Under the pieces are notes generated by a model. It was not told the origin of the DNA and did not search any database. It saw nothing but the letters and a program-made list of their open reading frames with translations. Position numbers and translations under genes: made by a program. Below, piece after piece: positions 2,881 through 21,618 of a DNA stretch of 24,000 nt (the stretch's first letter is position 1; every line of letters starts with the position of its first letter). Source of the DNA: an uncultured Acidobacteriota bacterium (GTDB lineage Bacteria > Acidobacteriota > Terriglobia > Acidiferrales > UBA7541); contig CAVSNW010000003.1 in assembly GCA_963729595.1 (NCBI GenBank), positions 1,750,979 through 1,774,978 of the forward strand, given 5' to 3'.

Positions 2881-2919
2881 CTGCGGGCTGCGTGCAAGCG
2901 ATTTTAGTCAAGGAGAGAA

Positions 2920-3684
2920 ATGAGCGAAACACAAAAGACGGCGGTGATTTTCGGGCTGGCGAATAAGCGCAGCATTGCTTGGGCGATTGCGCAGAAACTG
3001 CAACAAGCCGGCTGGCGCTTGGCGATTACCTATCAGAATGAACGCCTGGAGTTGGAGGCCAAGGACCTGATCGCCGAATTGCCAGGCGCGACGGGATTCA
3101 TGTGCGATGTGACGCAAGACGATCAGATTGCTAAGCTGTTTGATCAACTCAAGGAAAAATATGGTGCGTTGCACGGACTGGTGCACAGCATTGGCTTCGC
3201 GCCCGAGAGCGACCTGAAAGGGGAATTCGTCAACACCACGCGTGAGGGATTCCGCATCGCGAACGATATCAGTGTGTATTCCCTGATCGCCGTGGCGCGC
3301 GGAGCGCTGCCTTTGATGACGTCGGGCGGCGCCATCGTTACGCTCACGTATTATGGCGCGGAAAAAGTCGTGCCGCGATACAACCTCATGGGTGTGTCGA
3401 AAGCCGCTCTGGAAGCGACGGTTCGCTACCTCGCCAACGATCTCGGCTCGAAAGCAATACGCGTCAACGCCATTTCCGCCGGACCGATCAAGTCGCTGGC
3501 GTCGCGCGGAATATCCAATTTTGGCGATATGCTGAAGACCCAGATCGAGCGGGCGCCTTTGAAGCGTAACGTGGACCCCGCCGAAGTGGGCGCGACCGCG
3601 GCGTTCCTGCTTTCCGATGGCGGTTCGGGCATTACCGGCGAGACCATCTACGTGGATTGCGGCTATAACATCATGGGTTTTTAA
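2920..3684 (+). CDS. fabI: Enoyl-[acyl-carrier-protein] reductase (NADH) FabI
   Basis: A strong SD (AAGGAG) precedes the ATG. The N-terminus is GLANKRSIAWAIAQKL. The catalytic Tyr-x6-Lys region is YNLMGVSKAALEA. NAISAGPIKSLASRGI is also typical of FabI short-chain reductases. Confidence 0.95.
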   Translation: MSETQKTAVIFGLANKRSIAWAIAQKLQQAGWRLAITYQNERLELEAKDLIAELPGATGFMCDVTQDDQIAKLFDQLKEKYGALHGLVHSIGFAPESDLKGEFVNTTREGFRIANDISVYSLIAVARGALPLMTSGGAIVTLTYYGAEKVVPRYNLMGVSKAALEATVRYLANDLGSKAIRVNAISAGPIKSLASRGISNFGDMLKTQIERAPLKRNVDPAEVGATAAFLLSDGGSGITGETIYVDCGYNIMGF

Positions 3685-3814
3685 GCAGTCGACAGTCGGC
3701 AGTTCAACGTTTACAGTTAACCCCGAAAAACAACACTGTGCCGAAGTGTGTAAACCAAGGTGTGGCGAAAACTTGACGTGTGGTTGGCCATTGAGGACTG
3801 ACGACTGACAACAC

Positions 3815-4534
3815 ATGCCTAGACTTACGATTGCAATTGACGGTCCCGCAGGTTCGGGGAAGAGCAGCGTCGCGAGGCGAATTGCCGGCGTCCTGGAATA
3901 TTTGTATTTGGACAGTGGGGCGATGTATCGCGCGCTGGCGTTAAAAGCGCTGCAACACGGTGTTCCTCTCGACGACGAAGAGCAGCTCGAGAAACTGGCT
4001 GCCGACACCCACATCGAGTTGAAGGCGCCGACGCCCGAGCGAGAGCGGGGCGGATCAAAGAACGATGTTTTTCTGGATGGTGCGGACGTTACCGATGAGA
4101 TTCGCACCGGGGAAGTAGCGCAGGCGGCGTCGCGGCTGGCAACGATCGCAGGCGTGCGGCACGTGCTGGTGGCCGAGCAGCAGCGCGCCGGTGCGGGCGG
4201 TGGCGTGGTGATGGAAGGGCGCGACATCGGCACTGTAGTGTTTCCCAACGCGGAGCTCAAGATTTTTCTGGATGCTTCGCCGGAAGTGCGCGCGGAGCGG
4301 CGTTGGAAGGAGCACCAGGAAAAAGGAGATGACCTGACTGTGTTCCAGGTTCTCGAGGAAGTGCGGGAGCGCGACAAACGTGACCGAGAGCGCAAGGTGT
4401 CGCCTCTCGTACGGGCCGCCGATGCGGTCATCGTGGACAACACCGCAATGGATGTTGAGGAAACGGCGCGGCTGATCGTCATGCTGGCACGAGAGCGCGA
4501 GAAGGAGTTTGCGGAGGCCAGGAGGAAAGCTTGA
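3815..4534 (+). CDS. cmk: Cytidylate kinase
   Basis: The P-loop region IAIDGPAGSGKSSVARRIA is followed by YLDSGAMYRALA and EGRDIGTVVFPNAELKIFLDAS, a typical Cmk layout. Confidence 0.95.
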   Translation: MPRLTIAIDGPAGSGKSSVARRIAGVLEYLYLDSGAMYRALALKALQHGVPLDDEEQLEKLAADTHIELKAPTPERERGGSKNDVFLDGADVTDEIRTGEVAQAASRLATIAGVRHVLVAEQQRAGAGGGVVMEGRDIGTVVFPNAELKIFLDASPEVRAERRWKEHQEKGDDLTVFQVLEEVRERDKRDRERKVSPLVRAADAVIVDNTAMDVEETARLIVMLAREREKEFAEARRKA

Positions 4535-6369
4535 TGCGAATGCTGGCGATGGGGGCGGTGGGTCTGAGTAGCGCGTTGCTGATTGTTCCGATGTTGATTC
4601 TGGGTGATGAAAAAACCCGCTCGGCCGCTGACGCGCAGACCGACGAAACCCGCAAATTCCGGGCGTATCTCGACGCCGATTGGCAGCGTTGGATGGAAGA
4701 GTATCCGGATGTAGCGACGCAGGTCGGCTATCCCGGACAGAACAATCGCTGGACCGACGATTCGCCCGCGGGAATCGAGCGCAGGAAGAAGCACTTGGCC
4801 GAAAGCATTGCGGAACTGAAAGCGATTCACCGCGGTGTTTTGCCGGAAAGCGAAAAGCTGAACTTCGATCTGTATTCGCAGTTGCTGGAGACCTCGGAGG
4901 AAGGGTTGCAGTACGGCGACGATCCGCTGCCTTTTCGGTTTGTGGTGCCGCGAAGCCTTTGGATGCCGCTGAACCAGATGGAAGGGATTCAGCAGGGAGC
5001 AGCGGATGCGCTGGAGAGTACGCCGCACCATAGTTTGGCGGAATACGAAATTATTCTGGAGCGGATGAAAGCGCTGCCAACGGCGGTCGAGCAGCAGATT
5101 GCGCTGCTGCAAGAGGGATTGAAGCGCGGGTTCACGCCGCCGAAGATCACCATGCGCGACGTGCCAAAGCAGATCGCCGACCTGATTCCCGCCGATCCGA
5201 TGGCGAGCGCGCTGCTTCAGCCGTTCACGGAATTTCCCAGCGCATTCTCGGATGCAGAGCGTGCCCGCGTGACCGAGCAGGCGAAGAAAATTTACACGAG
5301 CGCGCTGGCACCGGCGTTTCAGAAATTGCACGACTACGTGGCATCGACATATTTGTCTGCGTGTCGCGAGAACACTGCGGCGACGGCGCTGCCGAATGGC
5401 GCCGCGGCATATGCCTTCCACGTTCGCTGGCAAACGACCGCGGATTTGACGCCGCAGCAGATTCACGACATCGGATTGTCGGAAGTGAAACGGATTCGCG
5501 CGGAGATGGACAAGGTCATCGCGTCGGTGAATTTCAAAGGGAGCTTTCACGAGTTCACGGAGTTTCTGCGCACCGATTCGCAGTTTTATTACGACAAGCC
5601 GGATGATCTTGTGAATGGCTACCGGATTATTACGAAGAAAATCGATCCGGAGCTGGCGCATGAATTCGGAAAACTGCCGCGCCTTCCCTATGGCGTTTGC
5701 CCGATTCCGGATTTCAAGGCGCCTTCGCAGACTACGGCGTATTACCAGGGAGGATCGCCTGCGGTGGGAAGGCCAGGCTGCTACTTCGTGAACACCTACA
5801 ACTTGAAGGCGCGGCCGAAGTTTGAGATGGAGGCGCTTTCGTTGCACGAGGCGGTGCCCGGGCACCATTTGCAGCTTTCCTTGGGACAGGAAATGGAGAA
5901 CGTGCCGGAGTTCCGAAAGCACGTGGGCTATTCGGCATTCGTGGAGGGATGGGCGCTGTACGGTGAGAGTCTCGGGGAAGAGTTGGGGTTGTACAAGGAT
6001 CCATACTCGAAGTTCGGGCAGCTGAGCTACGAGATGTGGCGCGCGGTGCGGCTGGTGGTGGATACCGGAATGCATTCGATGGGCTGGACGCGGGAGCAGG
6101 CTATTCGGTTCTTCAACGACAACACGGGGAAGACCAGCCAGGACACTACGGTCGAAGTGGATCGTTACCTCGTGTGGCCAGGTCAGGCGTTGGCTTACAA
6201 GCTGGGACAATTGAAGATACGGGAGTTGCGGACCGCAGCGGAGTCGAAGCTGGGGCCGAAGTTTGACGTCCGGAAGTTTCATGACGCGGTGCTGGAGAGT
6301 GGATCGTTGCCTTTGCGTGTGCTGGACGGGCACGTGAGATCGTGGATCGCGGGAATGAGCGCCGACTGA
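4531..6369 (+). CDS. Secreted DUF885 family protein
   Basis: The N-terminal hydrophobic signal-like segment is MLAMGAVGLSSALLIVPMLIL. Family-typical blocks are LHEAVPGHHLQ, FVEGWALYGE and EVDRYLVWPGQALAYKLGQLKI. The ATG at 4531 overlaps the cmk stop as ATGA. In-frame ATGs at 4534, 4540 and 4549 are alternative starts. Confidence 0.88.
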   Translation: MMRMLAMGAVGLSSALLIVPMLILGDEKTRSAADAQTDETRKFRAYLDADWQRWMEEYPDVATQVGYPGQNNRWTDDSPAGIERRKKHLAESIAELKAIHRGVLPESEKLNFDLYSQLLETSEEGLQYGDDPLPFRFVVPRSLWMPLNQMEGIQQGAADALESTPHHSLAEYEIILERMKALPTAVEQQIALLQEGLKRGFTPPKITMRDVPKQIADLIPADPMASALLQPFTEFPSAFSDAERARVTEQAKKIYTSALAPAFQKLHDYVASTYLSACRENTAATALPNGAAAYAFHVRWQTTADLTPQQIHDIGLSEVKRIRAEMDKVIASVNFKGSFHEFTEFLRTDSQFYYDKPDDLVNGYRIITKKIDPELAHEFGKLPRLPYGVCPIPDFKAPSQTTAYYQGGSPAVGRPGCYFVNTYNLKARPKFEMEALSLHEAVPGHHLQLSLGQEMENVPEFRKHVGYSAFVEGWALYGESLGEELGLYKDPYSKFGQLSYEMWRAVRLVVDTGMHSMGWTREQAIRFFNDNTGKTSQDTTVEVDRYLVWPGQALAYKLGQLKIRELRTAAESKLGPKFDVRKFHDAVLESGSLPLRVLDGHVRSWIAGMSAD

Positions 6370-6828
6370 CGAATTGGGATTGTTGGGCGATGGGATCGGT
6401 GGATGGGGTCGATTGGGAGCGACGTCCGAGCTTTCGTTGAATGTTTCCTCGTTGAGCAAACTGATACACCAATTTTTTGGGGAGTTGCCTTCGAAGTGTC
6501 TGCGGTTAAAAGAGCCTTGACGTATTTGAGGTAGATTTGTGTCAAGAACCTGCAAGGTTATGAAAACAATCGGTTTGCTTGGCACCTCTCGGTACGCAAT
6601 CTGATGACAAACCAATTTCGCGAAACGATGAGGTGGAGGCTGGGCGGCCCATGTCTGGGACCCTTAGAAGGTTTCTGGATATTGACCTATAGGTATCATC
6701 AATACCGTACGAAGTAGAGATGCCTTCGACTTTACTGGATAGCGGGGCGGCCGCTCGAATTGAGAGGCGCGCACCCATCTAGCGACGAGCTTGGCGGCAC
6801 TTCACCCGCTGTCATCCAGCTCGATCGA

Positions 6829-8758: not shown

Positions 8759-9343
8759 ATGGGGACAAGCAGGCTCGAGGCATTCAGTGACGGAGTGATC
8801 GCGGTCATCATCACGATCATGGTGCTGGAATTGAAGGTGCCGCAGGAGACCACCCTCGGTGCGTTGAGGCCGTTGTGCATAACGCTGTCCAGCTACGTCC
8901 TGAGTTTCTTGTACGTGGGGATCTACTGGAACAACCATCACCACATGTTGCACACGTGCGAGAAGGTGACGGGCAGGATTCTTTGGGCGAACCTGCACTT
9001 GTTGTTCTGGTTGTCGTTGATTCCGTTTGCGACGGCATGGATGGGAGAGAAGTTTTCGGCGGCGGCGCCGGCCGCTTTGTACGGCGCGGTGCTGTTCCTC
9101 GCGGCGATTGCCTACGTGATTTTGCAGCAGCAGATTATCGCCTCGCAGCCGGAGAGCTCGCTGCTGAAAAAGGCGGTCGGAAAGGATTGGAAGGGGAAGG
9201 TTTCGTTGGCGCTTTATGTTATTGGGATTTCGGCCGCTTTTCGGGCAGCCTGGATTTCGCAGATGTTGTATGCATTGACGGCGCTGATCTGGCTGGTGCC
9301 CGATCGAAGAATTGAGAGGGTCATCGAAGGAAGCGAAGGGTGA
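8759..9343 (+). CDS. TMEM175 / DUF1211 family membrane protein (putative K+ channel)
   Basis: The N-terminal signature RLEAFSDGVIAVIITIMVLEL is followed by further TM helices (YVGIYWNNHHHMLH, LHLLFWLSLIPFATAWM). The start is either the ATG at 8759 or the in-frame GTG at 8726, which overlaps the upstream stop as GTGA. Confidence 0.85.
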   Translation: MGTSRLEAFSDGVIAVIITIMVLELKVPQETTLGALRPLCITLSSYVLSFLYVGIYWNNHHHMLHTCEKVTGRILWANLHLLFWLSLIPFATAWMGEKFSAAAPAALYGAVLFLAAIAYVILQQQIIASQPESSLLKKAVGKDWKGKVSLALYVIGISAAFRAAWISQMLYALTALIWLVPDRRIERVIEGSEG

Positions 9344-9473
9344 GATTGAGATCTGCAAGCGAGGCCTTCCTCGCACGAATCGAGCGCGAGTGACGTCGCG
9401 GAATGCTAAGTACTTTCGAATTAACAAGTAACGCGAAAAAGCCTGGTATTTTGCAGATTTGTAGAAATTGTGC

Positions 9474-9502
9474 TTGACAGAAAAACGAATTGGCTTTACT
9501 TT
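9474..9502 (+). promoter_or_regulatory. Sigma-70-like promoter candidate facing the structured RNA array
   Basis: TTGACA (9474-9479), a 17-nt spacer and TACTTT (9497-9502). It lies in an AT-rich stretch after the TMEM175-like gene and its GCGAGG/CCTCGC hairpin (9359-9374). Confidence 0.35.
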
Positions 9503-9704
9503 GCGGTTACCTCAGTTGTACGCCTGCCTTGCGGCGGGTCCTCACTGAGCGTGGAAAGCAAACGATGAGACATAAACAACTTAGCCAAGCTGGACGCATG
9601 AAAAGGCTGCAGGGTCTCGTCGATTGCTTGACCGCGCGACCATAACAGAATCAGCCTAAGTCATTTCGATCCAGAACCATGCGTTACGGAAATAGGTGTT
9701 TGTA

Positions 9705-9802
9705 TTTTCCGGGATGGTGAAGTTCACAGTTACTTCTGGTAAGGCCGAAAGGTCTCGGGTTCGAAGCCCGAAAGACTGTGAGCGGTTGTTCCTCCCGGAA
9801 AA
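9705..9802 (+). ncRNA. Y-RNA-like structured RNA, module A (bulged basal helix plus compact tRNA-elbow mimic)
   Basis: Basal helix: 9705-9714 TTTTCCGGGA pairs with 9793-9802 TCCCGGAAAA, T9715 is bulged, and GG 9716-9717 pairs with CC 9791-9792. Second helix: TCACAGT 9724-9730 with ACTGTGA 9775-9781. Then TA, and CTT 9733-9735 with AAG 9772-9774. A CTGGTAA linker follows. A GAAA-capped hairpin (GGCC/GGTC) spans 9743-9754. A canonical T arm, TCGGG-TTCGAAG-CCCGA, spans 9755-9771. Confidence 0.45.
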
Positions 9803-9949
9803 GATTCACGTTGTGATGGATTGACTTGGTCGGGGCGTTTGGGGCGCGCCCTTTGAAGCTCAGAGTAAAGGAGCCCCGCCCGTACAAGAGAGGGCTGGTG
9901 TGTGCGTGCTGAAGGTGTGAGTGCAAGCGCGATTTTGCTGAAAAGTTTT

Positions 9950-10076
9950 CGGCGTGGCGAAGGCGCAAGTTACATCGGATCCATGGGTCGCAGGTTCAAT
10001 TCCTGCCGGTGGCGAAAGCAGCCGTAGCTCAGTGGTAGAGCAATGGGCAAAAAACTCGTGCCGGATGTTCCCGCCG
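9950..10076 (+). ncRNA. yrlA: YrlA-like Y RNA candidate, module C: circularly permuted tRNA mimic on a bulged basal helix
   Basis: Basal helix: CGGCG 9950-9954 with CGCCG 10072-10076, T9955 bulged, GG 9956-9957 with CC 10070-10071. Middle helix: ACATCGG 9972-9978 with CCGGATGT 10061-10068, with one bulged G. tRNA-like core, in order: TCCAT 9980-9984 (anticodon-stem 3' strand analog), 5-nt variable GGGTC, T arm GCAGG-TTCAATT-CCTGC 9990-10006, acceptor-like CGGTGGC-GAAA-GCAGCCG 10007-10024, TA, D arm GCTC-AGTGGTA-GAGC 10027-10041, A, ATGGG 10043-10047. Confidence 0.7.
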
Positions 10077-10117
10077 CAGAGCTTGAAGCACGGCCAGGAA
10101 TGGCTTGCTACCGAGAT

Positions 10118-10202
10118 GCCGGGATGGTGGGGAGTGGAGTTACTTCGTCTTGACACGATGCGGGGCGGATGTCCCGTGCCTCTGCTCGAAGTTCCTCCCG
10201 GC
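10118..10202 (+). ncRNA. Y-RNA-like structured RNA, module B (long imperfect hairpin, no tRNA-like domain)
   Basis: Basal helix: GCCGGGA 10118-10124 with TCCCGGC 10196-10202, T10125 bulged, GG 10126-10127 with CC 10194-10195. An internal loop follows (TGGG versus GAAGTT). Then GAGTGGAG 10132-10139 pairs with CTCTGCTC 10180-10187 (8 bp, two G-U). The apical region holds CGGGG/TCCCG-type pairing. Module B shares CCGGGATGGTG and GTTCCTCCCGG exactly with module A. Confidence 0.45.
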
Positions 10203-10308
10203 TTGATCTTATCGGGCGGATTGGGGGAAGCCGCAAGTCTCCGCAGACTTCGCTTGGCGCTACAGGATGCGCGCGAATTTAGGGCGACTTGGAAAGGAGG
10301 GTCACAGT

Positions 10309-10569
10309 ATGGATGAAGAACTATCACTGGAAGGTCCGGTGTTGAGGATCAATGGAGAATGGATGCTTTTGATTCCTCTCGAAGCTGGAGGTGCTGAATT
10401 GGTGGAGTGCTCTCGCGGCGTTTCGGAAGTGCAAGGAGAGTTTCTCAAGATCGTCATTCCGGAGTGGCTCGCGGGCGTGCTCCGAATTGAAGAAGGAGAT
10501 TTGGTGCGCGTTCAGGAGTCAAACGGGACACTCAACATTCAACCGCGCGAGGCGAGGCCTGTGAACTGA
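10309..10569 (+). CDS. Small AbrB/SpoVT-like (swapped-hairpin) domain protein, 86 aa
   Basis: A strong SD, GGAAAGGAGGG (10291-10301), lies 7 nt before the ATG at 10309. The C-terminal half FLKIVIPEWLAGVLRIEEGDLVRVQESNGTLNIQP fits the AbrB/MazE/SpoVT pattern (v-IP-...-l-i-eGD-v-v-...-g-l-i-P). The N-terminal half (VLRINGEWMLLIPLEAGG) may be a second degenerate half-domain. Confidence 0.6.
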   Translation: MDEELSLEGPVLRINGEWMLLIPLEAGGAELVECSRGVSEVQGEFLKIVIPEWLAGVLRIEEGDLVRVQESNGTLNIQPREARPVN

Positions 10570-10624
10570 GTGAATCAGTGCTTGGTTGAGTCTAGTGCTC
10601 CGTAACTACAACGCCGCCAGGAAT

Positions 10625-10730
10625 GAGTCTGGGTGGCAACTCGAACGACGGGCCCGGTCAGCCAAAGCCGGAACGAAATGAGCCTTTGCGGCACGGCGGA
10701 AACCGTACCCGCTCGTCGCCACGCAGACTC
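10625..10730 (+). other. Structured leader or RNA element between the AbrB-like ORF and rsr
   Basis: GAGTCTG 10625-10631 pairs with CAGACTC 10724-10730, and GTGGC 10633-10637 pairs with GCCAC 10718-10722, across a G-G mismatch. These helices enclose about 80 nt that contain local hairpins (CCGG...CCGG, ACGG-CGGAAA-CCGT). The element is flanked by CAGGAATG direct repeats. Confidence 0.3.
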
Positions 10731-10813
10731 AGGAATGGCTTTGGCACGAAGAGAGATCTTGTGGCGCTGAGGAGTGCGGTCGGGCTCGGATGCGCAGAAA
10801 GGAGGAGTGGAAG

Positions 10814-12145
10814 ATGGCGAAGATGAATGTTTGGAAGCAGATGTTTGCGGTGCGGACGCACGAGGGAGCGGTGGCGCAGCGCGTCGATGCCAAACGCGAG
10901 CTTCGGCGCAGCGTGCTGACGTGTTTGCTGTGGGAAGACACGTTTTACGAGAAGGGCAGCGAGATCGCGAAGCGGATCGCGGGACTTGCCGCCGAAAGCA
11001 AGCCGGAGGATGTGGCGGCTCTTGCTTGCGAGGCGCGCGATGCGATGCAGCTTCGTCACGCGCCGCTCTTCCTGGTGCGCGAACTGGCGCGGCGCAAAGG
11101 CTCGGGTTCACTCGTAGCGGAATCGCTGGAGCGGGTAATCCAGCGAGCCGACGAATTGGGTGAGTTCGTGGCGCTGTACTGGAAAGAGAAGAAGCAGCCG
11201 CTGTCGGCAGGGGCGAAGCGCGGGCTGGCGCGGGCGTTCACGAAGTTCGACGCCTACCAGCTGGCGAAGTACGACCGCGAAGCCGTGGTGACGCTCCGCG
11301 ACGTGCTGTTCCTGTGCCACGCCAAACCGAAGGATGCCGAGCAAGCGGCCGTTTGGAAGAAACTCGTCGAGAACACGCTCGAATCTCCCGATACGTGGGA
11401 GGTTGCGTTGTCCGCAGGGAAAGACAAGCGCGAGAATTTCGAACGGTTGCTGCGGGAAGGCAAGCTCGGTGGCATGGCTGTGCTCCGCAACCTGCGCTTG
11501 ATGCTGGCTGCAGGCGTCGAGCCGTCGCTCATTCGTGAACGCCTCGAGAAAGGCGTGGGGCGCGCGCTGCCGTTCCGGTTTGTGACGGCGGCGCGGCACG
11601 CGCCGAAGGTGGAGGACGCGATCGAGGAGGCCATGCTCAAGGGAATCGTCGGACTTGGCGGACTTGCAGGTTCGACTGGACTGATTGTGGACGTGTCCGG
11701 GTCGATGGACGGCAAGTTGTCCAAGAAGGGCGAGACCACGCGCATGGATGCTGCGGCAGGGCTGGCGATCTTGCTGCGTGAGAGGGCCGAAGGGTTTTGC
11801 ATCGCGACCTTCTCCGACGCATGCGTCGAACTGCCTGCGCGGCGTGGCTTCGCGCTTCGCGACGTGATCGTGGGATCACAAGCGCACTCGGGGACGTACC
11901 TCAAGCGCGCGCTGGAGAAGCTCCACGAGAAGCGAGAATGGCGCGAGCTTTCGCGAATCATCGTGATCACCGACGAGCAATCGCACGACGGAATCCTGGA
12001 TGCGTGGACGCCGAAGGCGTACGTCGTCAACGTGGCCCCGTATCAGTACGGCATCAGCTACGGTCGAGGATGGACGCACGTGGACGGTTGGTCGGAACGG
12101 ATCGTGGATTACATTGCGGCGGTGGAGGAAGAGACCGCGGCGTAA
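10814..12145 (+). CDS. rsr: TROVE domain + vWA domain protein, Ro60 ortholog (Rsr-like)
   Basis: The SD AAAGGAGGAG at 10798-10807 favours the ATG at 10814 over the track start at 10790. The N-terminal TROVE-type block is RTHEGAVAQRVDAKRELRRSVLTCLLWEDTFYEKG, followed by a helical-repeat body. The C-terminal vWA domain has the MIDAS motif DVSGSM (nt 11690-11707) and a later ITDEQSHD block. Confidence 0.88.
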   Translation: MAKMNVWKQMFAVRTHEGAVAQRVDAKRELRRSVLTCLLWEDTFYEKGSEIAKRIAGLAAESKPEDVAALACEARDAMQLRHAPLFLVRELARRKGSGSLVAESLERVIQRADELGEFVALYWKEKKQPLSAGAKRGLARAFTKFDAYQLAKYDREAVVTLRDVLFLCHAKPKDAEQAAVWKKLVENTLESPDTWEVALSAGKDKRENFERLLREGKLGGMAVLRNLRLMLAAGVEPSLIRERLEKGVGRALPFRFVTAARHAPKVEDAIEEAMLKGIVGLGGLAGSTGLIVDVSGSMDGKLSKKGETTRMDAAAGLAILLRERAEGFCIATFSDACVELPARRGFALRDVIVGSQAHSGTYLKRALEKLHEKREWRELSRIIVITDEQSHDGILDAWTPKAYVVNVAPYQYGISYGRGWTHVDGWSERIVDYIAAVEEETAA

Positions 12146-13455
12146 TTCGTTAACAAAAGCGATTTGCCGGCGCGGCGGAAAGATTCGTCGCGCCGCTTTC
12201 TTTGGGGCGTTGTGCACTGGAAGAGAATCCACAGGGCTGCCCAGACCTCGCCCCGCGCTACAAGAGGCTCGCAGCGCGGGAGGTGGCGGAGGTGTAACAG
12301 TCCGGAATGAGGGTTTCGACGGAGCCGAAGCAGGCGGCAGCGAGGGCGGGCCAAATCAGCGCGTTCGTAGGCGAGAAGAATGTTGTAGATGTTGCGCAAT
12401 TGGTTCGGGCCGCCACAGAGGGCGGTGCGGATCTGCGGGGAAACAGGGAGGTTAGAAAGGACCTCCTCGATTGGCCGGTCGAGGATGGCGTCGGTGACGG
12501 AGAGAAGGCCCATCAGGAAGAGGTCAGAGGCCTGAGAAGAGATGCCGGCATGGTTGGCCATGGCTTCGCAGAAAAAGGCCCGGGTCAGAGCGGTACGAAT
12601 GAGCTCAGGCGGTTTGTCGCTGGCCATGGCGACGACGGCGAGGATGGAAATCCAGCGGCGAAACTCGTTATCACCGAGCAAGGAAATGGCCTCGCGAACA
12701 TCGTGAATTTCTCCGCGAAGGCCGAGCAGCGGGGAGTTTAGGTACCGGAGGAGCTTGTAAACAAGAGAAGGGTCGCTCTTCAGCAGGTCTTCGACAACTT
12801 CGTGGGAAAAGGCTGCGGGGGAAACCGCGGCGAGGAGCCGCAGATAGTGAAGTTTGTTTCCAGGAATTTCGCGGGCGTTGAGCATGGCGGGCTTGCAAAA
12901 GAAATAACCCTGGAAAAAGGTGTAGCCGAGGGAGCGGGCTTCGTTGAGCTCAGCTTGGGTTTCGACTTTTTCGGCCAGGAGTTGCATACCGTCACCTTTG
13001 TGGCGGCGGCTGACGGTCGCGCGGGTGTCAGAATCGGCAGCGCGAAAGTCGACTTTAAGAAATTTTGCGACCGGGAGTAAGAGATCCCACTTGGGGTGGC
13101 CGATGTAATCGTCCAGCGCGAGAGTGTAGCCGGCGTCGCGGAGATCAGTGCAAAGCTGGACGACCTCCGGAGTGGGGACGATGTTTTCGAGAATTTCGAG
13201 AATGACGCGATCGGGAGGAAGGAAGCGCGCGGCGCCGCGCTGGAGAGCGGAGAGATCGACATTGATGAAGGCTTTCGCGCTGCCGGTGAGAGTCTGGAGA
13301 TCGAACAGCATGGTGGAATCAACGATGACGCTACTAGAGGCTTCCTTTTGGGGGCGAAAAATGTTGTCCGGACCGGCACGGAACAAGAGTTCGTAGGCGA
13401 AGAGCTTGAGTTTTTCGTCGAAGATTGGCTGACGAGCGATGAACTTTTCGTACAT
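12109..13455 (-). CDS. EAL domain + HDOD domain signalling protein; the C-terminal ~80 codons are probably out of frame (see findings)
   Basis: The start is taken at the ATG at 13455 (MYEKFIARQPIFD), not the upstream TTG of the track ORF. EAL-domain blocks: YELLFR, VILEILEN, LALDDYIG, FLKVDF, LLAEKVETQAE, FFQGYFFCKP. HDOD block: LLKSDPSLVYKLLRYLNSPLLGLRGEIHDVREAISLLG. The Arg-rich tail after ...LAYERAD runs through the rsr terminator and 37 nt into rsr. Confidence 0.8.
   Translation of the reverse strand: MYEKFIARQPIFDEKLKLFAYELLFRAGPDNIFRPQKEASSSVIVDSTMLFDLQTLTGSAKAFINVDLSALQRGAARFLPPDRVILEILENIVPTPEVVQLCTDLRDAGYTLALDDYIGHPKWDLLLPVAKFLKVDFRAADSDTRATVSRRHKGDGMQLLAEKVETQAELNEARSLGYTFFQGYFFCKPAMLNAREIPGNKLHYLRLLAAVSPAAFSHEVVEDLLKSDPSLVYKLLRYLNSPLLGLRGEIHDVREAISLLGDNEFRRWISILAVVAMASDKPPELIRTALTRAFFCEAMANHAGISSQASDLFLMGLLSVTDAILDRPIEEVLSNLPVSPQIRTALCGGPNQLRNIYNILLAYERADLARPRCRLLRLRRNPHSGLLHLRHLPRCEPLVARGEVWAALWILFQCTTPQRKRRDESFRRAGKSLLLTNYAAVSSSTAAM
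12169..12203. terminator. Intrinsic terminator candidate downstream of rsr (possibly bidirectional)
   Basis: GGCGCGG 12169-12175 pairs with CCGCGCC 12189-12195, and CGGA 12176-12179 pairs with TTCG 12184-12187 with T12188 bulged. The loop is AAGA. The stem is followed by C-TTTCTTT (12196-12203). On the minus strand the same stem is followed within about 10 nt by TTTTGTT. Confidence 0.5.
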
Positions 13456-13774: not shown

Positions 13775-15034
13775 TCACGTTGGGGCGGACATAGACCCGA
13801 GAAATTCGGTGTTCGACTTCGTCTTGGTGAGGCGACTGAGCAGGAGCTCCATCGCTTCGACCGTGGAGAGAGGGCTCAAGACCTTACGCAGAACCCAGAC
13901 GCGGCTGAGCTCGTCGGGAGGGAGGAGCAGCTCGTCTTTTCTGGTGCCGGAACGCTGAATGTCGATCGCGGGGAAGACGCGCTTGTCGGAGAGGCGGCGA
14001 TCGAGGTTGATTTCCATGTTGCCAGTGCCCTTGAACTCCTCGAAGATGACGTCGTCCATGCGGCTGCCAGTGTCGATAAGGGCGGTGGCGATGATGGTGA
14101 GCGAGCCGCCTTCTTCGACATGGCGTGCGGCGGCAAAGAAACGGCGCGGGCGCTGCAGGGCGTTGGCGTCGATTCCGCCGGAAAGGACTTTGCCCGAAGG
14201 CGGGGTGACGGCGTTGTAAGCGCGGGCGAGACGGGTTACCGAATCGAGGAGAACGACTACGTCGCGCTTGTGTTCGACGAGGCGCTTGGCTTTCTCGAGG
14301 ACCATTTCGGCGACTTGAATGTGGCGCTGGGGCGGTTCGTCGAAGGTGGAGCTGATGACTTCACCCTTGACGGTGCGCTGCATGTCGGTGACTTCTTCGG
14401 GGCGCTCGTCGATGAGGAGAACGATTAGAGCGACCTCAGGATGGTTGACGGTGATGGAGTTGGCAATGGACTGCAGCATCATGGTCTTACCGGTACGCGG
14501 GGGAGCGACGATCAATCCGCGCTGGCCTTTGCCTACCGGGCAGAGAAGATCGAGCACGCGACCTGTCATGTTTTCCTTGGTCGTTTCCATCTTCAGGCGA
14601 CCCTGCGGGTAGAGCGGGGTCAGGTTGTCGAAGAAGATCTTGTTGCGGGCGACTTCGGGATCTTCGAAGTTGACGGCTTCGACTTTGATCAACGCGAAGT
14701 AGCGTTCACCGTCTTTCGGTGGACGGACCTGGCCGGAGACGGTGTCGCCGGTGCGTAGATCGAACTTGCGGATTTGCGACGGCGAGACGTAGATATCGTC
14801 CGGTCCGGGGAGGTAGTTGTATTCGGGGGCGCGCAAGAAACCGAAACCATCGGGGAGGCACTCGAGGACGCCTTCGGAGAAGATCAAACCGTTCTTTTCG
14901 GTTTGAGCACGGAGGATCTGGAAGATCAGCTCCTGCTTGCGCATGCCGGACGCGCCGGGAATGTTCAACTCCTTGGCAATCTTTGCCAAGTCGGTGATGT
15001 TCTTTTCCTTCAGCTCGGCAAGGCTGATACTCAT
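13775..15034 (-). CDS. rho: Transcription termination factor Rho
   Basis: The Rho N-terminal domain reads [40 protein letters not shown]. An RNA-binding OB region follows. The Walker A region is [14 protein letters not shown]. The start is taken at the ATG at 15034, preceded by GAAGGAAA. The track ORF starts 11 codons upstream. Confidence 0.95.
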   Translation of the reverse strand: MSISLAELKEKNITDLAKIAKELNIPGASGMRKQELIFQILRAQTEKNGLIFSEGVLECLPDGFGFLRAPEYNYLPGPDDIYVSPSQIRKFDLRTGDTVSGQVRPPKDGERYFALIKVEAVNFEDPEVARNKIFFDNLTPLYPQGRLKMETTKENMTGRVLDLLCPVGKGQRGLIVAPPRTGKTMMLQSIANSITVNHPEVALIVLLIDERPEEVTDMQRTVKGEVISSTFDEPPQRHIQVAEMVLEKAKRLVEHKRDVVVLLDSVTRLARAYNAVTPPSGKVLSGGIDANALQRPRRFFAAARHVEEGGSLTIIATALIDTGSRMDDVIFEEFKGTGNMEINLDRRLSDKRVFPAIDIQRSGTRKDELLLPPDELSRVWVLRKVLSPLSTVEAMELLLSRLTKTKSNTEFLGSMSAPT

Positions 15035-15305
15035 CTGATTATTTCCTTCAACGCTTGTTTCCTTCATATGTCCTTAACTTTTATTGGTGAACGTAAGTTG
15101 GTGAAATTGACCTGAAACTCCGGATTGCATACGGGGTGGCGCTCCGCGCTGGCGGATAAACGAAAATCTGCCAGGAGGGGCGAGCCAGACTTTGTGACAA
15201 CCGGTGGCGACGCCGGACCGAGCGAACTATGGACTGCGTTCCGTAGCGAGTAACCCGACGGGGTCGAGATCAAGCGGCGGGACGAGCCTGGGCCGAACGA
15301 CGCTG

Positions 15306-17714
15306 TTAGTTGGTCAAACTCTTGTCTTTCTCGGTGCTACCGACGAAAGGTTCCGCAACGGGCGCAACTGCGGCATGTTCCAGCGGCACGATCAGGCGCT
15401 CAAGCGCGATCTGCAGCACTTCATCCATATTCTCGACAAAATGTACCGTAAGGCTCGCGAGGATTTCCTGCGGGATGTCCGCCAGGTCCTTCTCATTGTC
15501 CTTCGGAAGGAGCACTGTGCGCAAGCCCATTCGATGTGCGGCGAGAAGTTTCTCTTTGACGCCGCCAATGGGGAGGACCTTGCCGCGCAGGGTGATCTCG
15601 CCGGTCATGGTGACGTCGCGGCGGACCGGGATTTTCGTTAAGGCGCTTACGATCGAGTTGCAAATGGTGATGCCCGCGGACGGGCCGTCCTTGGGGATGG
15701 CGCCCTCAGGGACGTGCACGTGGATGTCGATGTTGCGATAAAAATCTTTAGGCAGGCCGAAAGCGTGGGAACGCGAGCGAATGTAGGCCATTGCGGCTTG
15801 TGCGGACTCCTGCATAACGTCGCCAAGTTTTCCGGTGAGCGTCAGCCGGCCCTTGCCTTCCATGAAGGTGGCTTCGGTGGAGAGAACGGAGCCTCCCACT
15901 TCGGTCCAGGCGAGACCGGTGGTCAAGCCGATTTCGTTGTGCTTCTCAAGCCATAGCTCGCGATATTTCAGGATGCCCAGGTAGTCGCTAGCATTGGCTG
16001 GCGTGATTTCGGCGTTTACTGCGGCCCCTTCTGTCACAACCTTGCGGGCCATTTTGCGGCTTACATTTTGGATTTCGCGTTCGAGGCTGCGGACGCCGGC
16101 TTCGTGCGTGTAGTGGCGAATGATATGGAGCAGGCCTTCGTCGGTGAAACCTAGATTCTTGTCGGTTAGTCCGGTGGCTTCGCGCTGGCGCTTGACCAGG
16201 AAGCGCTTGGCGATTTGGAGCTTTTCCTGCTCGGTGTATCCCGGGATGCGCAGGACTTCCATGCGATCCTGCAACGGTTGCGGGATGGTGTGCAGGACGT
16301 TGGCGGTGCAGACAAACATTACTTTGGAAAGGTCGTATTCGACGTCGAGATAGTGATCGGTGAAAGCGTGGTTGAGTTCTGGGTCAAGGACTTCCATCAG
16401 GGCTGCGGACGGATCACCGCGGAAATCCATAGACATCTTGTCGACTTCATCGAGGACGAAGATGGGGTTGACGGTCCCGGCCTTCTTCATCATCTGGATG
16501 ATCTGACCGGGCAGGGCTCCGATGTAGGTGCGGCGATGGCCGCGAATTTCGGCTTCATCGCGCACGCCGCCGAGCGAGACGCGGACGAATTTGCGGCCGG
16601 TGGCGTGGCCGATGGACATGGCCAAAGACGTTTTGCCAACGCCTGGAGGGCCGACGAAACAGAGGATCGATCCTTTGGGATTCTTCACCAGTTGGCGGAC
16701 GGCGAGGAATTCGAGGATGCGATCTTTTATTTTCTCGAGGCCGTAGTGCTCTTCGTTGAGAATTTTCTCGGCCGCGAGGATATCGCGAATTTCCTTGGAT
16801 TTCTTCTTCCAGGGTACAGCGAGAAGCCAGTCGAGATAGTTGCGGCTAACGGTAGATTCGGCGGACATCGGAGGCATGAGTTCCAGGCGCTTGAGCTCCT
16901 GGATAGCCTTCTCGTGTACGTCCTTGGACATGCCGGCAGCGTCGATCTTCTTTTTGAGCTCGTCGATCTCGTTCTTTTCGCCGCGACCAAGTTCTTTCTG
17001 GATGGCTTTAAGCTTTTCGTTGAGGTAGTACTCTTTTTGTGCGCGCTCCATCTGACGCTTGACGCGGGTGTTTATGTTGCGGTCGACGTTAAGCTTTTCG
17101 AGTTCGATTTCGAGGATGTCGCCAATGCGGTTGAGGCGCTCGATGGGATCAACGGTTTCGAGCAAGTCCTGTTTTTCGTCAACGGGAAGCTGGAGATTGG
17201 CGGCGATGGTGTCCGAAAGACGGGCAGGGTCATCGACACGCGCGGCGGCGATCATGGTGTCGTAGTTCAGCGACTGCGAAAGCTTGATGAACTGTTCGTA
17301 AAGGCCGGTGATTTTCTGGACAGTCTGTTCGACGGCCGGCGAAGGCTCAACGCGAGCATTCAGCAGGCGAACCGTGGCACGGAAGAATCCTTCCTCGGTA
17401 GCGATGGAGAGAGCACGAGCGCGCTCGACGCCTTCGACGAGAACTTTGATGTTGCCATCCGGAAGCTTGACGCTCTGCACGATATTGGCAAGGGTTCCGA
17501 CGGCGTAAATCTCTTCCGGCTTGGGATCATCCACCGAAGCGTCGTGCTGGGTGGATAGGAAAATCTTTTTGTCCCCGGTGAGAGCCTCTTCGAGAGCACG
17601 GACGCTGGCTTCGCGGCCGACGATGAAGGGCGTCATCTGCTGGGGGAAAATAACCATATCGCGCACCGGCATCATGGGCACGCGCTTCATTTCCTGTTTT
17701 TCTCGGTTGAACAT
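15306..17714 (-). CDS. lon: ATP-dependent Lon protease
   Basis: The LON N-domain reads [22 protein letters not shown]. The AAA+ Walker A is GPPGVGKTS. The proteolytic Ser motif is PKDGPSAG. The start is uncertain: GTG 17732, ATG 17714 and ATG 17690 are all in frame. Confidence 0.95.
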   Translation of the reverse strand: MFNREKQEMKRVPMMPVRDMVIFPQQMTPFIVGREASVRALEEALTGDKKIFLSTQHDASVDDPKPEEIYAVGTLANIVQSVKLPDGNIKVLVEGVERARALSIATEEGFFRATVRLLNARVEPSPAVEQTVQKITGLYEQFIKLSQSLNYDTMIAAARVDDPARLSDTIAANLQLPVDEKQDLLETVDPIERLNRIGDILEIELEKLNVDRNINTRVKRQMERAQKEYYLNEKLKAIQKELGRGEKNEIDELKKKIDAAGMSKDVHEKAIQELKRLELMPPMSAESTVSRNYLDWLLAVPWKKKSKEIRDILAAEKILNEEHYGLEKIKDRILEFLAVRQLVKNPKGSILCFVGPPGVGKTSLAMSIGHATGRKFVRVSLGGVRDEAEIRGHRRTYIGALPGQIIQMMKKAGTVNPIFVLDEVDKMSMDFRGDPSAALMEVLDPELNHAFTDHYLDVEYDLSKVMFVCTANVLHTIPQPLQDRMEVLRIPGYTEQEKLQIAKRFLVKRQREATGLTDKNLGFTDEGLLHIIRHYTHEAGVRSLEREIQNVSRKMARKVVTEGAAVNAEITPANASDYLGILKYRELWLEKHNEIGLTTGLAWTEVGGSVLSTEATFMEGKGRLTLTGKLGDVMQESAQAAMAYIRSRSHAFGLPKDFYRNIDIHVHVPEGAIPKDGPSAGITICNSIVSALTKIPVRRDVTMTGEITLRGKVLPIGGVKEKLLAAHRMGLRTVLLPKDNEKDLADIPQEILASLTVHFVENMDEVLQIALERLIVPLEHAAVAPVAEPFVGSTEKDKSLTN

Positions 17715-17777
17715 TGGGTCCCTGAATTTCACCTCAAGCGGCCATAAGCCGGCCGATTTTCGGAAGCGCGAAGCAGC

Positions 17778-19028: not shown

Positions 19029-19184
19029 TGGTATGCAGGCCCTCGTCTCCGCCGGATTTCAACGGAACGTCGTCAATTCCTATTCTAGGCTGAATATTCC
19101 CCTGAGCGAAAGAGAAACCTGAGTGACTGCTAACTTTTAAGAACAAGCTGTTGATCGAAGCGCGAACGCCCCTGCGTCTGCAAA

Positions 19185-19811: not shown

Positions 19812-19830
19812 TTGAGTAAAGTTTGTGACC

Positions 19831-21141: not shown

Positions 21142-21618
21142 GGAAATCCTTTCGAACGGCGCCTTGCAGGCGCTCAAAAAGAAATGTCGCGCAGGGAAGG
21201 TCCGCTGGTCACGACAGTATGCGCCCCTGATTGCAAATTTCAGAGAACGTAAGCTTTAGAGAGGCCAGACAGGTGAGAAATCACCCTGCAAACTCGAAAG
21301 ATAAGTATAAGTGACGTGCCCACCAGGGTCAAATCGAGCGCCGCCTGCGACGAAGTCCACACGTCCGGTAGCGCGTCTTATCAGGGTCTGGGAGGGGAAG
21401 GTTGAAAAGGAAAGCATCGCCAACTACCTTCAGCACATCTACGACATGCGCACGATTGCCGTCGTCTAATGGTTGCCGCGGCGCAATCCTGCGGCCTGGA
21501 AATCGATCTAAATCAGGAGCGCGCGATTATCCCTGGAAACCGGACATCAAGTGATTCCTACAAGGAACCCGTCAAATCAAGGGGAGGGCAATCGCTCATA
21601 GATCAACCGCCGCGTTGA

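What the first reader, a model, noticed from the sequence alone, without database searches (positions are those of the whole stretch)
9705..10202. Tandem array of three structured RNAs sharing a covarying bulged-U helix, upstream of a Ro60 (TROVE/vWA) gene
Seen in sequence: three plus-strand stem-loop modules are each closed by the same unusual helix.
- A: TTTTCCGGGA-T-GG (9705-9717) pairs with CC-TCCCGGAAAA (9791-9802).
- C: CGGCG-T-GG (9950-9957) pairs with CC-CGCCG (10070-10076).
- B: GCCGGGA-T-GG (10118-10127) pairs with CC-TCCCGGC (10194-10202).
In all three, one T is bulged on the 5' strand and two invariant GG:CC pairs follow. The 5' strand continues YG, and the 3' strand is preceded by an unpaired GTT. 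A and B share CCGGGATGGTG and GTTCCTCCCGG exactly. Between A/B and C the lower helix changes GGGA:TCCC to GGCG:CGCC. These are compensatory changes that keep the pairing, while the bulge and flanking unpaired bases stay fixed. That pattern fits a protein-recognition helix better than a duplicated sequence. Established knowledge: Ro60/Rsr binds the bulged basal helix of Y RNAs, and bacterial Y RNAs (Deinococcus, Salmonella YrlA/YrlB, Mycobacterium smegmatis) are encoded next to rsr. Inference: this is a three-member Y-RNA family for the Rsr encoded 0.6 kb downstream, and the conserved helix is its binding site. About 0.95 kb (9344-10308) has no credible ORF.
Basis: partly seen in the sequence, partly recalled or inferred. 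Interest (0 to 1): 0.8.

Follow-up and report, generated by a model that had tools for sequence, protein, structure and literature searches.

The report
Three tandem Y RNAs upstream of Ro60
Just upstream of a Ro60-like gene, this soil acidobacterium encodes three small structured RNAs that share one protein-binding stem; they are new members of the known bacterial Y RNA class, which standard RNA annotation misses, and related bacteria and phages carry arrays of up to eight.

Summary
Three plus-strand modules (A 9705-9802, C 9950-10076, B 10118-10202) each close with a 5-7 bp helix, a bulged U and two G:C pairs. I found further shared features: a YG(A/G)(A/G) 5' loop, an 8-bp upper helix, an invariant UUAC and a 6-7 nt 3' loop ending GUU.

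Module C is a YrlA-type Y RNA with T, acceptor-like and D arms. It scores 41 bits against Rfam RF02553 (E 3e-7), below the curated cutoff of 69. Module A keeps only a T arm. Module B has no tRNA-like part.

All three modules are conserved upstream of rsr in dozens of Acidobacteriota genomes. Their inner helices covary and their basal stems are almost invariant. A descriptor of the stem finds 257 modules on the rsr strand of 80 related loci, against 1 on the other strand and about 5 in shuffles. These loci carry 3-6 modules each. The same signature precedes homologous TROVE genes in phages, with up to 8 modules.

The most likely mechanism is that the RNAs are cut from one operon transcript, bind Rsr through the shared stem, and present different effector domains. 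Expression and binding are untested. Novelty: new members of a known kind. The multi-module arrays are not described in any paper I could read.

The parts
9411..9430 (.). Conserved palindrome TACTT(T/G)-N8-CAAGTA upstream of the promoter; candidate regulator binding site
   Evidence: Near-invariant in a 28-sequence alignment of orthologous upstream regions. Position. The function is inferred.
9474..9502 (+). Promoter-like TTGACA (9474-9479), 17-nt spacer, TACTTT (9497-9502); likely start of the Y RNA/rsr operon
   Evidence: Both hexamers are invariant or nearly so across 28 loci, and 100% identical to L082 while the flanks diverge. The consensus scanner did not call it because the -10 matches only 3 of 6.
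9503..9652 (+). Conserved structured leader that also holds a 26-codon ORF (9565-9645, MRHKQLSQAGRMKRLQGLVDCLTARP)
   Evidence: Fold energy -55.8 kcal/mol, z -3.4. The consensus fold has 8 pairs with double changes. ORF length and frame are kept in 27 of 28 loci, with ATG/TTG/GTG starts. No Rfam match.
9705..9802 (+). Module A, a Y RNA with a T arm only. Basal helix 9709-9714:9793-9798; bulged U 9715; GG 9716-9717:CC 9791-9792; loop UGAA 9718-9721; upper helix 9722-9729:9776-9783; UUAC 9730-9733; hairpin 9743-9754; T arm 9756-9770; 3' loop 9784-9790
   Evidence: Fold. 38 orthologs, 98.2% of cells paired, covariation above 500/500 shuffles. 98% identical to L082 against 73% for the adjacent spacer.
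9950..10076 (+). Module C, a YrlA-type tRNA-like Y RNA. Basal helix 9950-9954:10072-10076; bulged U 9955; GG 9956-9957:CC 10070-10071; GGCGAAG motif 9956-9962; upper helix 9962-9969:10055-10062; UUAC 9970-9973; T arm 9990-10006; acceptor-like stem with GAAA loop 10007-10024; D arm 10027-10041; 3' loop 10063-10069
   Evidence: Rfam RF02553, 41 bits, E 3e-7, full model length. 26 orthologs, 97.3% paired, 48 cells with double changes against 17.9 in shuffles.
10118..10202 (+). Module B, a Y RNA with no tRNA-like part. Basal helix 10118-10124:10196-10202; bulged U 10125; GG 10126-10127:CC 10194-10195; loop UGGG 10128-10131; upper helix 10132-10139:10180-10187; UUAC 10140-10143; hairpins 10146-10157 and 10160-10177; 3' loop 10188-10193
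   Evidence: Fold. 28 orthologs, 96.9% paired, covariation above 500/500 shuffles. A compensatory A:U to G:C change in the upper helix against L082.
10309..10569 (+). Conserved 86-aa protein of unknown function between the array and rsr
   Evidence: RBS GGAGG at 10296-10300. Called as a gene in L082 and L083. 422 homologs, none with a Pfam domain. Present in 32 loci, usually about 30 nt after the last module. All-beta model, pLDDT 82.6, no significant fold match. Only weak MazE/UFD1_N1 similarity.
10624..10732 (+). Stable stem-loop element in the rsr 5' region, at the place where close relatives carry a fourth YrlA-like module
   Evidence: -52.2 kcal/mol, z -3.0. Conserved only in the nearest relatives L081-L083, with one arm not compensated in L082. 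No match in the 80 loci. L001 has a full TGGACG-type module here.
10814..12145 (+). rsr: Ro60-family protein (TROVE ring + vWA domain with DVSGS MIDAS motif), 443 aa
   Evidence: Pfam TROVE 51.4 bits against cutoff 23; VWA_2 20.4 bits. PDB phiRo60 9KOP/9L5Y, E 3e-30. Profile search also hits RO60 9nen, E 7.6e-5. DVSGS at residue 293.
12168..12203 (+). Terminator-like hairpin plus T run, 23 nt after the rsr stop; the only one between the promoter and the operon end

Best explanation
The region encodes three paralogous Y RNAs for the Ro60-family protein Rsr encoded 0.6 kb downstream.

Transcription probably starts at the conserved promoter at 9474-9502. It probably runs through a leader, modules A, C and B, an 86-codon gene and rsr, and ends at the terminator at 12168-12203 (inferred). 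The modules are then cut out as RNAs of about 85-130 nt (inferred by analogy with M. smegmatis).

Each RNA pairs its 5' and 3' ends into the same stem:
- a 5-7 bp helix of free sequence;
- a bulged U;
- two invariant G:C pairs;
- an asymmetric internal loop, with YG(A/G)(A/G) on the 5' side and 6-7 nt ending GUU on the 3' side;
- an 8-bp helix;
- UUAC.

This stem is the Rsr binding site (inferred). GG + YGAA corresponds to the published GNCGAAN0-1G/CGAA motif.

The distal parts differ. C has a circularly permuted tRNA-like domain (YrlA type). A has a hairpin plus a T arm. B has two plain hairpins. One protein could therefore be gated by, or tethered to, different partners such as PNPase or tRNA-binding factors (inferred from D. 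radiodurans, Salmonella and phage phiLo).
For: - Stem present and thermodynamically favoured in all three modules.
- Module C hits Rfam YrlA at E 3e-7, with T, acceptor-like and D arms aligned.
- GGCGAAG and UUAC match the published motifs.
- The neighbouring gene is TROVE + vWA.
- Orthologs of A, C and B occur in 45, 54 and 35 of 80 related loci, always on the rsr strand upstream of rsr.
- Structures are 97-98% paired against 25-60% for slid controls, and covariation exceeds all 500 shuffles.
- The modules are far better conserved than the spacers (98, 92 and 98% against 73%).
- The stem descriptor gives 257 hits on the rsr strand, 1 on the other strand and 4.6 in shuffles.
- When candidates are picked without using the basal helix, 88 of 132 have 6/6 basal pairs on 23 different hexamers, and slid controls give none.
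- Features the descriptor did not impose are conserved: NUAC in 219/257, a 7-nt 3' loop in 205/257, U at the second-last loop position in 251/257.
- The same signature lies in tandem upstream of homologous phage TROVE genes.
- The closest solved homolog binds two upstream Y-like RNAs through a stem-bulge-stem with CGAA, and point mutations in that motif weaken binding 3-4 fold.
- No terminator-like site lies between the array and rsr.
Against: - There are no expression or binding data. Discrete RNA species and Rsr binding are both inferred.
- Module C is below the Rfam gathering score (41 against 69 bits). A and B have no Rfam match at all.
- A and B carry UGAA and UGGG instead of CGAA. In phiRo60-Yrl2 a C-to-U change lowered affinity about 3-fold.
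- The protein is a short, divergent Ro60 relative: 27 bits against a 900-bit cutoff on the NCBIfam Rsr equivalog. No direct phmmer hit to D. radiodurans or Xenopus Ro60.
- Fold z-scores of C and B alone are weak (-1.2, -1.9).
- Within each module type the basal helix never varies, so its pairing is supported only by comparison between types.
Confidence: 0.85

Rival explanations
1. The modules are not released as separate RNAs. They act in cis, as Rsr-binding sites in a long 5' leader of the rsr operon mRNA, for example for autoregulation of rsr by its own product.
For: No terminator-like site lies between the modules and rsr, and one conserved promoter lies upstream of all of them. The modules always sit on the rsr strand and upstream.
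Against: In every characterised case (D. radiodurans, Salmonella, M. smegmatis) such modules accumulate as discrete RNAs; in M. smegmatis they are processed from a single precursor upstream of rsr. A protein-coding gene lies between the array and rsr. The elaborate and diverse distal domains, including a full tRNA mimic, are not needed for a simple operator. Processing and autoregulation do not exclude each other.
Confidence: 0.1
2. The modules are decaying copies of a permuted tRNA-like repeat or mobile element with no present function. The shared helix only reflects common descent.
For: A and B share identical 11-nt stem strings. The number of modules varies between loci (0-6). The window lacks module types that its relatives have.
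Against: Spacers diverge (73% identity) while modules stay at 92-98%. Inner helices keep pairing through compensatory changes. The stem signature is kept on at least 23 unrelated basal-helix sequences and across Acidobacteria and proteobacterial phages. No copies occur elsewhere in the window or on the opposite strand.
Confidence: 0.03
3. The modules are ordinary cis-regulatory structures (attenuators or riboswitch-like elements), or true tRNA genes, unrelated to Rsr.
For: T-arm and D-arm sequences are present. Rfam's tRNA model gives hits that span two neighbouring modules in relatives. GenBank annotates tRNAs at such modules in two phages.
Against: ARAGORN finds no tRNA in the window. In module C the arm order is T, then acceptor-like stem, then D (circularly permuted), with a closed acceptor loop. 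No riboswitch or leader family matches. The association with TROVE genes holds across 80 loci and in phages.
Confidence: 0.02

Closest known systems
Bacterial YrlA Y RNAs (Rfam RF02553; Salmonella Typhimurium, M. smegmatis; Chen et al. 2014, PMC4201824)
   Same: Encoded on the same strand within 4 kb of an Ro60 gene. A terminal stem carries GNCGAAN0-1G. YUAY follows the upper helix. The tRNA-like domain has T arm, closed acceptor-like stem and D arm in that order (module C).
   Different: Scores 41 bits against the curated 69. cmscan aligned the model's first helix to the upper helix rather than to the true motif. The stem has a bulged U two pairs before the motif, which the Rfam consensus lacks. 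It belongs to Acidobacteriota, which no paper I could search links to Y RNAs. The paper's own species table (Supplemental Table S1) is not held, so I could not check it.
YrlB / Yrn2-type second Y RNAs (Salmonella YrlB, M. smegmatis YrlB, D. radiodurans Yrn2)
   Same: These are additional Rsr-bound RNAs encoded beside YrlA. They share the Rsr-binding stem but lack the full tRNA mimic. M. smegmatis YrlB has a possible T arm, like module A, and both M. smegmatis RNAs come from one precursor upstream of rsr.
   Different: Those RNAs were found only by immunoprecipitation and were reported to have eluded bioinformatic discovery. Here A and B can be recognised from sequence because the stem signature is strict. 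A and B have their own conserved distal domains.
Thermus phage phiLo phiRo60 with Yrl1/Yrl2 (PDB 9KOP, 9L5Y; PMC12135203)
   Same: It is the closest solved homolog of the window's protein (E 3e-30). Two Y-like RNAs lie in tandem directly upstream of the gene. They have a stem-bulge-stem with CGAA, shown to bind the protein and to form ternary complexes with PNPase.
   Different: Two simple hairpin RNAs rather than three with diverse domains. No tRNA-like module is described. It is a phage system rather than a chromosomal one.
Metazoan Y RNAs bound by Ro60 (Rfam RF00019)
   Same: Same architecture: the 5' and 3' ends pair into a lower helix with a single bulged pyrimidine, then an internal loop, then an upper helix. 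There are several paralogs per genome. Ro60 reads mainly the 5' strand.
   Different: No sequence or model match. Metazoan Y RNAs come from individual Pol III genes, not an operon. The bulge is C, not U. They have no tRNA-like domain.

Membership tests
Bacterial Y RNA, YrlA subfamily (RF02553; Chen et al. 2014) | Encoded within about 4 kb of, and on the same strand as, an Ro60/TROVE gene | tested here: met
   The modules at 9705-10202 and rsr at 10814-12145 are both on the plus strand. The same holds in 80 related loci.
Bacterial Y RNA, YrlA subfamily (RF02553; Chen et al. 2014) | Long stem formed by the 5' and 3' ends, carrying GNCGAAN0-1G near the 5' end | tested here: met
   C has GGCGAAG at 9956-9962, an exact match. 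A has GGUGAAG and B has GGUGGGG, which are variants at the C and, in B, at the AA. Across 257 modules UGAA is the commonest form.
Bacterial Y RNA, YrlA subfamily (RF02553; Chen et al. 2014) | Conserved YUAY after the upper helix (start of the variable loop; kink in the solved structure) | tested here: met
   UUAC in A, C and B (9730, 9970, 10140). NUAC in 219 of 257 modules.
Bacterial Y RNA, YrlA subfamily (RF02553; Chen et al. 2014) | tRNA-like domain: T arm, closed acceptor-like stem, D arm | tested here: met
   Met for module C only (9990-10041). A has a T arm only and B has none, so A and B are Y RNAs of the non-YrlA (YrlB-like) sort.
Bacterial Y RNA, YrlA subfamily (RF02553; Chen et al. 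2014) | Score at or above Rfam's gathering threshold (69 bits) | tested here: not met
   41 bits, E 3e-7. All 15 YrlA-model hits in the eight related loci scanned score 32-46 bits, and phage hits score 30-56 bits. The curated model does not cover this clade.
Bacterial Y RNA, YrlA subfamily (RF02553; Chen et al. 2014) | Stable small RNA that binds Rsr and depends on it for accumulation | not testable with these tools
   Needs Northern blots or RNA-seq and Rsr immunoprecipitation.
Ro60 / Rsr protein family | TROVE (HEAT-repeat ring) domain followed by a vWA domain with a MIDAS motif | tested here: met
   TROVE 51.4 bits (cutoff 23). VWA_2 20.4 bits, below its cutoff of 27, but DVSGS is present at residue 293. 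Homologous over residues 13-438 to phiRo60 9KOP.
Ro60 / Rsr protein family | Equivalog of canonical bacterial Rsr (NCBIfam NF041674) | tested here: not met
   27.3 bits against a cutoff of 900. The protein belongs to a shorter subfamily of about 440 aa, shared with phages at about 50% identity.
Metazoan Y RNA (RF00019) | Match to the covariance model | tested here: not met
   No match at E up to 10 in 9300-10900.
tRNA | Canonical cloverleaf with anticodon arm and free acceptor ends | tested here: not met
   ARAGORN finds none in the window. The arm order is permuted and the acceptor-like stem is closed by GAAA.

The most novel reading that the evidence does not exclude
The short TROVE/vWA subfamily found in Acidobacteriota and in many phages works with tandem arrays of 3-8 Y RNA paralogs, not with one or two. 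All share one strict stem (free helix, bulged U, GG:CC, YGNA loop, 8-bp helix, NUAC), but each carries a different effector domain. These domains include several tRNA mimics per locus and new non-tRNA classes. The array would then be a transcribed library of adaptors that directs one Ro60 ring to different partners or substrates. Because the subfamily is spread through phages, that role could lie in RNA damage responses or phage-host conflict. The strict stem would also give the first sequence-only way to find the non-tRNA-like Y RNAs that earlier searches missed.
Probability: 0.3. Interest if true: 0.7.

Novelty: new member of a known kind. Interest (0 to 1): 0.5.

Why it matters
Ro60-Y RNA particles are conserved from bacteria to humans, and the human particle is a major lupus and Sjogren autoantigen. 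Even so, what the variable part of a Y RNA recruits is known for very few cases.

This locus and its relatives add a phylum in which no Y RNA has been reported in the literature I could search. They show that the curated Rfam model misses the whole clade.

They also give a compact sequence/structure signature for the Rsr-binding stem. That signature picks out non-tRNA-like Y RNAs, which until now were found only by immunoprecipitation.

The arrays of 3-8 paralogs with different distal domains, in bacteria and phages, make the question 'what do Y RNA effector modules bind?' testable on many natural variants. They also flag probable tRNA mis-annotations in phage genomes.

Tried and rejected
- Rfam at gathering thresholds on the whole window found nothing. 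Only the permissive search found YrlA.
- ARAGORN found no tRNA or tmRNA.
- The sigma-70 consensus scan found no promoter in 9300-12400. I propose the promoter from conservation only.
- blastn of the A-C spacer, the post-B stretch and 10570-10813 against the 80 loci gave almost nothing. I treat these as variable spacers or clade-specific sequence.
- I considered the 10624-10732 hairpin as a fourth, degenerate Y module and rejected it. It lacks UGGYG and the UCC closure, and one arm is not compensated in L082.
- I considered that the leader (9503-9652) is purely an RNA, or purely a small ORF. The data support both readings and I could not separate them.
- The 86-aa protein has no Pfam or NCBIfam family. 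A confident AlphaFold model had no significant PDB fold match (best E 0.17).
- I did not run the count of structure pairs on descriptor-derived stems, because the descriptor imposes the pairing. I used strand and shuffle enrichment and a scan blind to the basal helix instead.
- Literature: the supplementary tables of Chen et al. 2014 and the two Wolin-lab reviews (PMC6542706, PMC10870794) are not held. I therefore cannot exclude that multi-copy YrlA loci were listed there.
Full report
**Observation.** Folded on its own, each module gives the same closing structure: a basal helix, one bulged U on the 5' strand, then two G:C pairs. The fold z-scores are -4.3 for A, -1.2 for C and -1.9 for B.

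The resemblance goes further than reported. After the GG comes a 4-nt 5' loop (UGAA in A, CGAA in C, UGGG in B). An 8-bp upper helix follows, with one or two wobbles or mismatches, and then AGUUAC. On the 3' side a 6-7 nt loop ending GUU precedes the CC. The hexamer AGTTAC occurs only three times on the plus strand of the 24-kb window, once per module and in register.

A descriptor of the whole stem finds exactly these three sites in the window and none on the other strand. Dinucleotide shuffles of the window give 0.42 hits over both strands. Three hits on one strand within 500 nt are therefore not chance.

**Identity of the parts.** The gene 0.6 kb downstream (10814-12145) has a TROVE domain (51 bits, cutoff 23) and a weak vWA match with a DVSGS MIDAS motif. 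Its closest solved relative is the Ro60 homolog of Thermus phage phiLo (9KOP/9L5Y, E 3e-30). A profile of its orthologs also reaches a chain named RNA-binding protein RO60. It is a short (443 aa), divergent member of the family. It fails the NCBIfam Rsr equivalog model (27 against 900 bits).

Rfam finds nothing in the window at curated thresholds. A permissive search matches module C to YrlA over the full model (41 bits, E 3e-7, gathering score 69), with the T arm, closed acceptor-like stem and D arm aligned at high posterior probability. ARAGORN calls no tRNA, as expected for a permuted mimic.

Chen et al. 2014 define bacterial Y RNAs by these features:
- proximity to rsr on the same strand;
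- a terminal stem with GNCGAAN0-1G;
- a conserved YUAY;
- for YrlA, T, acceptor-like and D arms.

Module C has all of them (GGCGAAG 9956-9962, UUAC 9970-9973). Module A has GGUGAAG, UUAC, a small hairpin and a canonical T arm (CGGGUUCGAAGCCCG), but no D arm. It resembles the T-arm-bearing YrlB of M. smegmatis. Module B has GGUGGGG, UUAC and two plain hairpins.

**Comparative evidence.** The organism is an acidobacterium of the Candidatus Acidoferrum/Acidoferrales group. I fetched 80 genomic loci around Rsr orthologs of 55-90% identity. blastn finds module A in 45 loci, C in 54 and B in 35, always upstream of rsr on its strand.

Alignments that were not fitted to any structure give consensus folds identical to the single-sequence folds. 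Counting pairs on those alignments:

| Module | Cells paired | Pairs with changes on both sides |
|---|---|---|
| A | 98.2% | 8 |
| C | 97.3% | 8 |
| B | 96.9% | 6 |

With partners slid by 1-3 columns, only 25-60% of cells pair. The covariation scores exceed all 500 shuffles in each case.

The covariation sits in the upper helix and the distal hairpins, namely the T stem, the acceptor-like stem and the hairpins of A and B. Within each module type the basal helix, the bulge, the GG:CC pairs and the D stem are essentially invariant. That points to sequence-specific recognition rather than pairing alone.

Against the closest full-length relative (L082, Rsr 95% identical), the modules are 98, 92 and 98% identical and the promoter 100%. 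The A-C spacer is only 73% identical.

**The stem as a family signature.** A stricter descriptor was used on the 80 loci: six free bases, U, GG, YG, a 4-5 nt loop, an 8-nt helix with at least 7 pairs, a 3-7 nt loop, UCC, and at least 5 of 6 pairs back to the first six bases. It finds 257 modules on the rsr strand, 1 on the other strand and 4.6 in shuffles. Nearly all lie upstream of rsr.

Because that descriptor imposes pairing, I repeated the scan using only the unpaired motifs and a perfect upper helix. Of 132 candidates, 88 have 6/6 basal pairs and 9 have 5/6, on 23 different hexamers. Slid controls have no 6/6 cases.

Several features that the descriptor did not impose are nonetheless conserved:
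- NUAC after the upper helix in 219 of 257;
- a 7-nt 3' loop in 205 of 257;
- U at the second-last loop position in 251 of 257;
- A at the fourth 5'-loop position in most.

The lower helix changes freely (CCGGGA, GCGGCG, GCAGAG, CCGGUG, UGGACG; in Terriglobales GCUGGG, GGUCAG, GGCCGG, CGCCGG) while the bulge and flanking bases stay fixed.

**Arrays.** Most related loci carry more modules than this window: 21 loci have three, 25 have four, 12 have five and 2 have six.

A typical Acidoferrales order is: A, C, one or two further T/D-bearing modules, B, a UGGACG-type YrlA-like module, the 86-aa gene, then rsr. Neighbouring modules are often only 8-10 nt apart.

Rfam's YrlA model hits up to four modules per locus, all at 32-46 bits. 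The window, like L082, L006 and several others, has the minimal A-C-B set. Where L001 has a full fourth module, the window has an unrelated stable hairpin (10624-10732).

**Phages.** The window's protein is about 50% identical to TROVE proteins of Xanthomonas, Brevundimonas, Caulobacter, Microcystis, Ralstonia and crAss-like phages. The same descriptor finds tandem modules on the same strand directly upstream of those genes. Phage Tenjo has three, phage Gurke four and CcrColossus eight. Sub-threshold YrlA hits lie among them.

Two GenBank tRNA annotations there overlap these modules and are probably mis-called. The stem and the array habit therefore belong to this TROVE subfamily as a whole.

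**Operon context.** Upstream of module A, 28 orthologous sequences share these elements in order:
- a palindrome TACTTG-N8-CAAGTA (9411-9430);
- TTGACA-17-TACTTT (9474-9502);
- a leader of about 150 nt.

The leader folds stably (z -3.4) and its helices show some compensatory changes. It also holds a 26-codon ORF whose length and frame are kept in 27 of 28 loci, with ATG, TTG or GTG starts. I could not decide between RNA and peptide function.

No terminator-like site occurs until 23 nt after the rsr stop. Between module B and rsr lies an 86-codon gene with a good ribosome-binding site. It is found in 32 loci, has 422 homologs and has no known domain. Its confident all-beta model matches no solved fold.

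**Mechanism and confidence.** The best-supported reading (0.85) is a polycistronic transcript from which three Y RNAs are released. They bind Rsr through the shared stem and present different distal domains.

What is shown: the stem, its conservation, its covariation pattern, its exclusive association with TROVE genes, and the YrlA nature of module C. What is inferred from published systems: processing, Rsr binding, and gating or tethering to PNPase or tRNA-binding factors.

The main rival (0.1) is that the modules act in cis as Rsr sites in the operon leader. This is compatible with the data but is not the precedent. Functionless repeats, or ordinary tRNAs and riboswitches, are poorly supported.

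**Novelty.** This is a known kind of system (Ro60 with adjacent Y RNAs, at least two per bacterium in all studied cases), so I file it as new members of a known kind.

Three things go beyond what I could find in the literature:
- Y RNAs in Acidobacteriota;
- a strict bulged-U stem signature that identifies non-tRNA-like Y RNAs from sequence;
- tandem arrays of 3-8 paralogs in bacteria and phages.

The Chen 2014 supplements and two key reviews were not available. Prior mention of multi-copy loci therefore cannot be excluded.

Noticed in passing
L001-L080 (e.g. L007 2058-3072; L009 1023-2098; L079 373-2029): Related Acidobacteriota rsr loci carry 3-6 tandem Y-like modules with the same stem, including up to four T/D-arm (YrlA-like) modules per locus, often only 8-10 nt apart. 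The window has the minimal three.
   Followed up: yes
L084 2324-2919; L085 2086-2920; L086 1762-2955: Phage homologs of the TROVE gene (Xanthomonas phage Tenjo, Brevundimonas phage Gurke, Caulobacter phage CcrColossus) are preceded by 3, 4 and 8 tandem modules with the same bulged-U/GG/YGNA stem. GenBank 'tRNA-Ser' (L085 2787-2861) and 'tRNA-Gln' (L086 2173-2240) overlap these modules and look mis-annotated.
   Followed up: partly
window 9565-9645 (within leader 9503-9652): A 26-codon ORF (MRHKQLSQAGRMKRLQGLVDCLTARP) keeps its length and frame in 27 of 28 orthologous leaders, with ATG/TTG/GTG starts. The same stretch also forms a conserved, partly covarying structure. Whether it acts as a peptide, an RNA or both is undecided.
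   Followed up: partly
window 9411-9430 and 9474-9502: A conserved palindrome TACTT(T/G)-N8-CAAGTA lies about 45 nt upstream of an invariant TTGACA-17-TACTTT promoter-like element. It suggests a dedicated regulator, unlike the sigma-54/RtcR control known in Salmonella.
   Followed up: partly
window 9654-9672: The box GCCUAAGUCAUUUCGAUCC, between the leader and module A, is nearly invariant across 28 loci and is unpaired in the consensus fold. Its function is unknown.
   Followed up: no
window 10309-10569: An 86-aa protein is conserved between the Y RNA array and rsr in 32 Acidoferrales-clade loci. tblastn does not detect it (E <= 1e-3) in the 32 more distant loci whose Rsr is 55-61% identical (L047, L049, L050, L052-L080, mostly Terriglobales). 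It has no known domain, and its confident beta-rich model has no significant fold match. It could be a partner or regulator of the system.
   Followed up: partly
window 10624-10732: A stable stem-loop (-52 kcal/mol, z -3.0) sits in the rsr 5' region exactly where L001 and L002 carry a fourth YrlA-like module. It is conserved only in the nearest relatives (L081-L083) and has no Y RNA stem signature.
   Followed up: partly
L023 2295-2431; L007 2344-2480; L009 1307-1438: Rfam's tRNA model scores above its own gathering threshold on stretches that join the D arm of one Y module to the T arm of the next. This artefact of tandem permuted tRNA mimics could seed false tRNA calls.
   Followed up: no
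window 2908-6615 (minus strand): A 1235-aa ORF has no Pfam family at E <= 0.001. It was not examined further.
   Followed up: no
window 671-2668, 13775-21177: The surroundings are housekeeping genes (MutL, TMEM175-like channel, EAL/HDOD protein, Rho, Lon, ClpX, trigger factor). The TMEM175 - array - rsr - EAL/HDOD order is kept in L082, so the locus is chromosomal rather than a prophage.
   Followed up: partly
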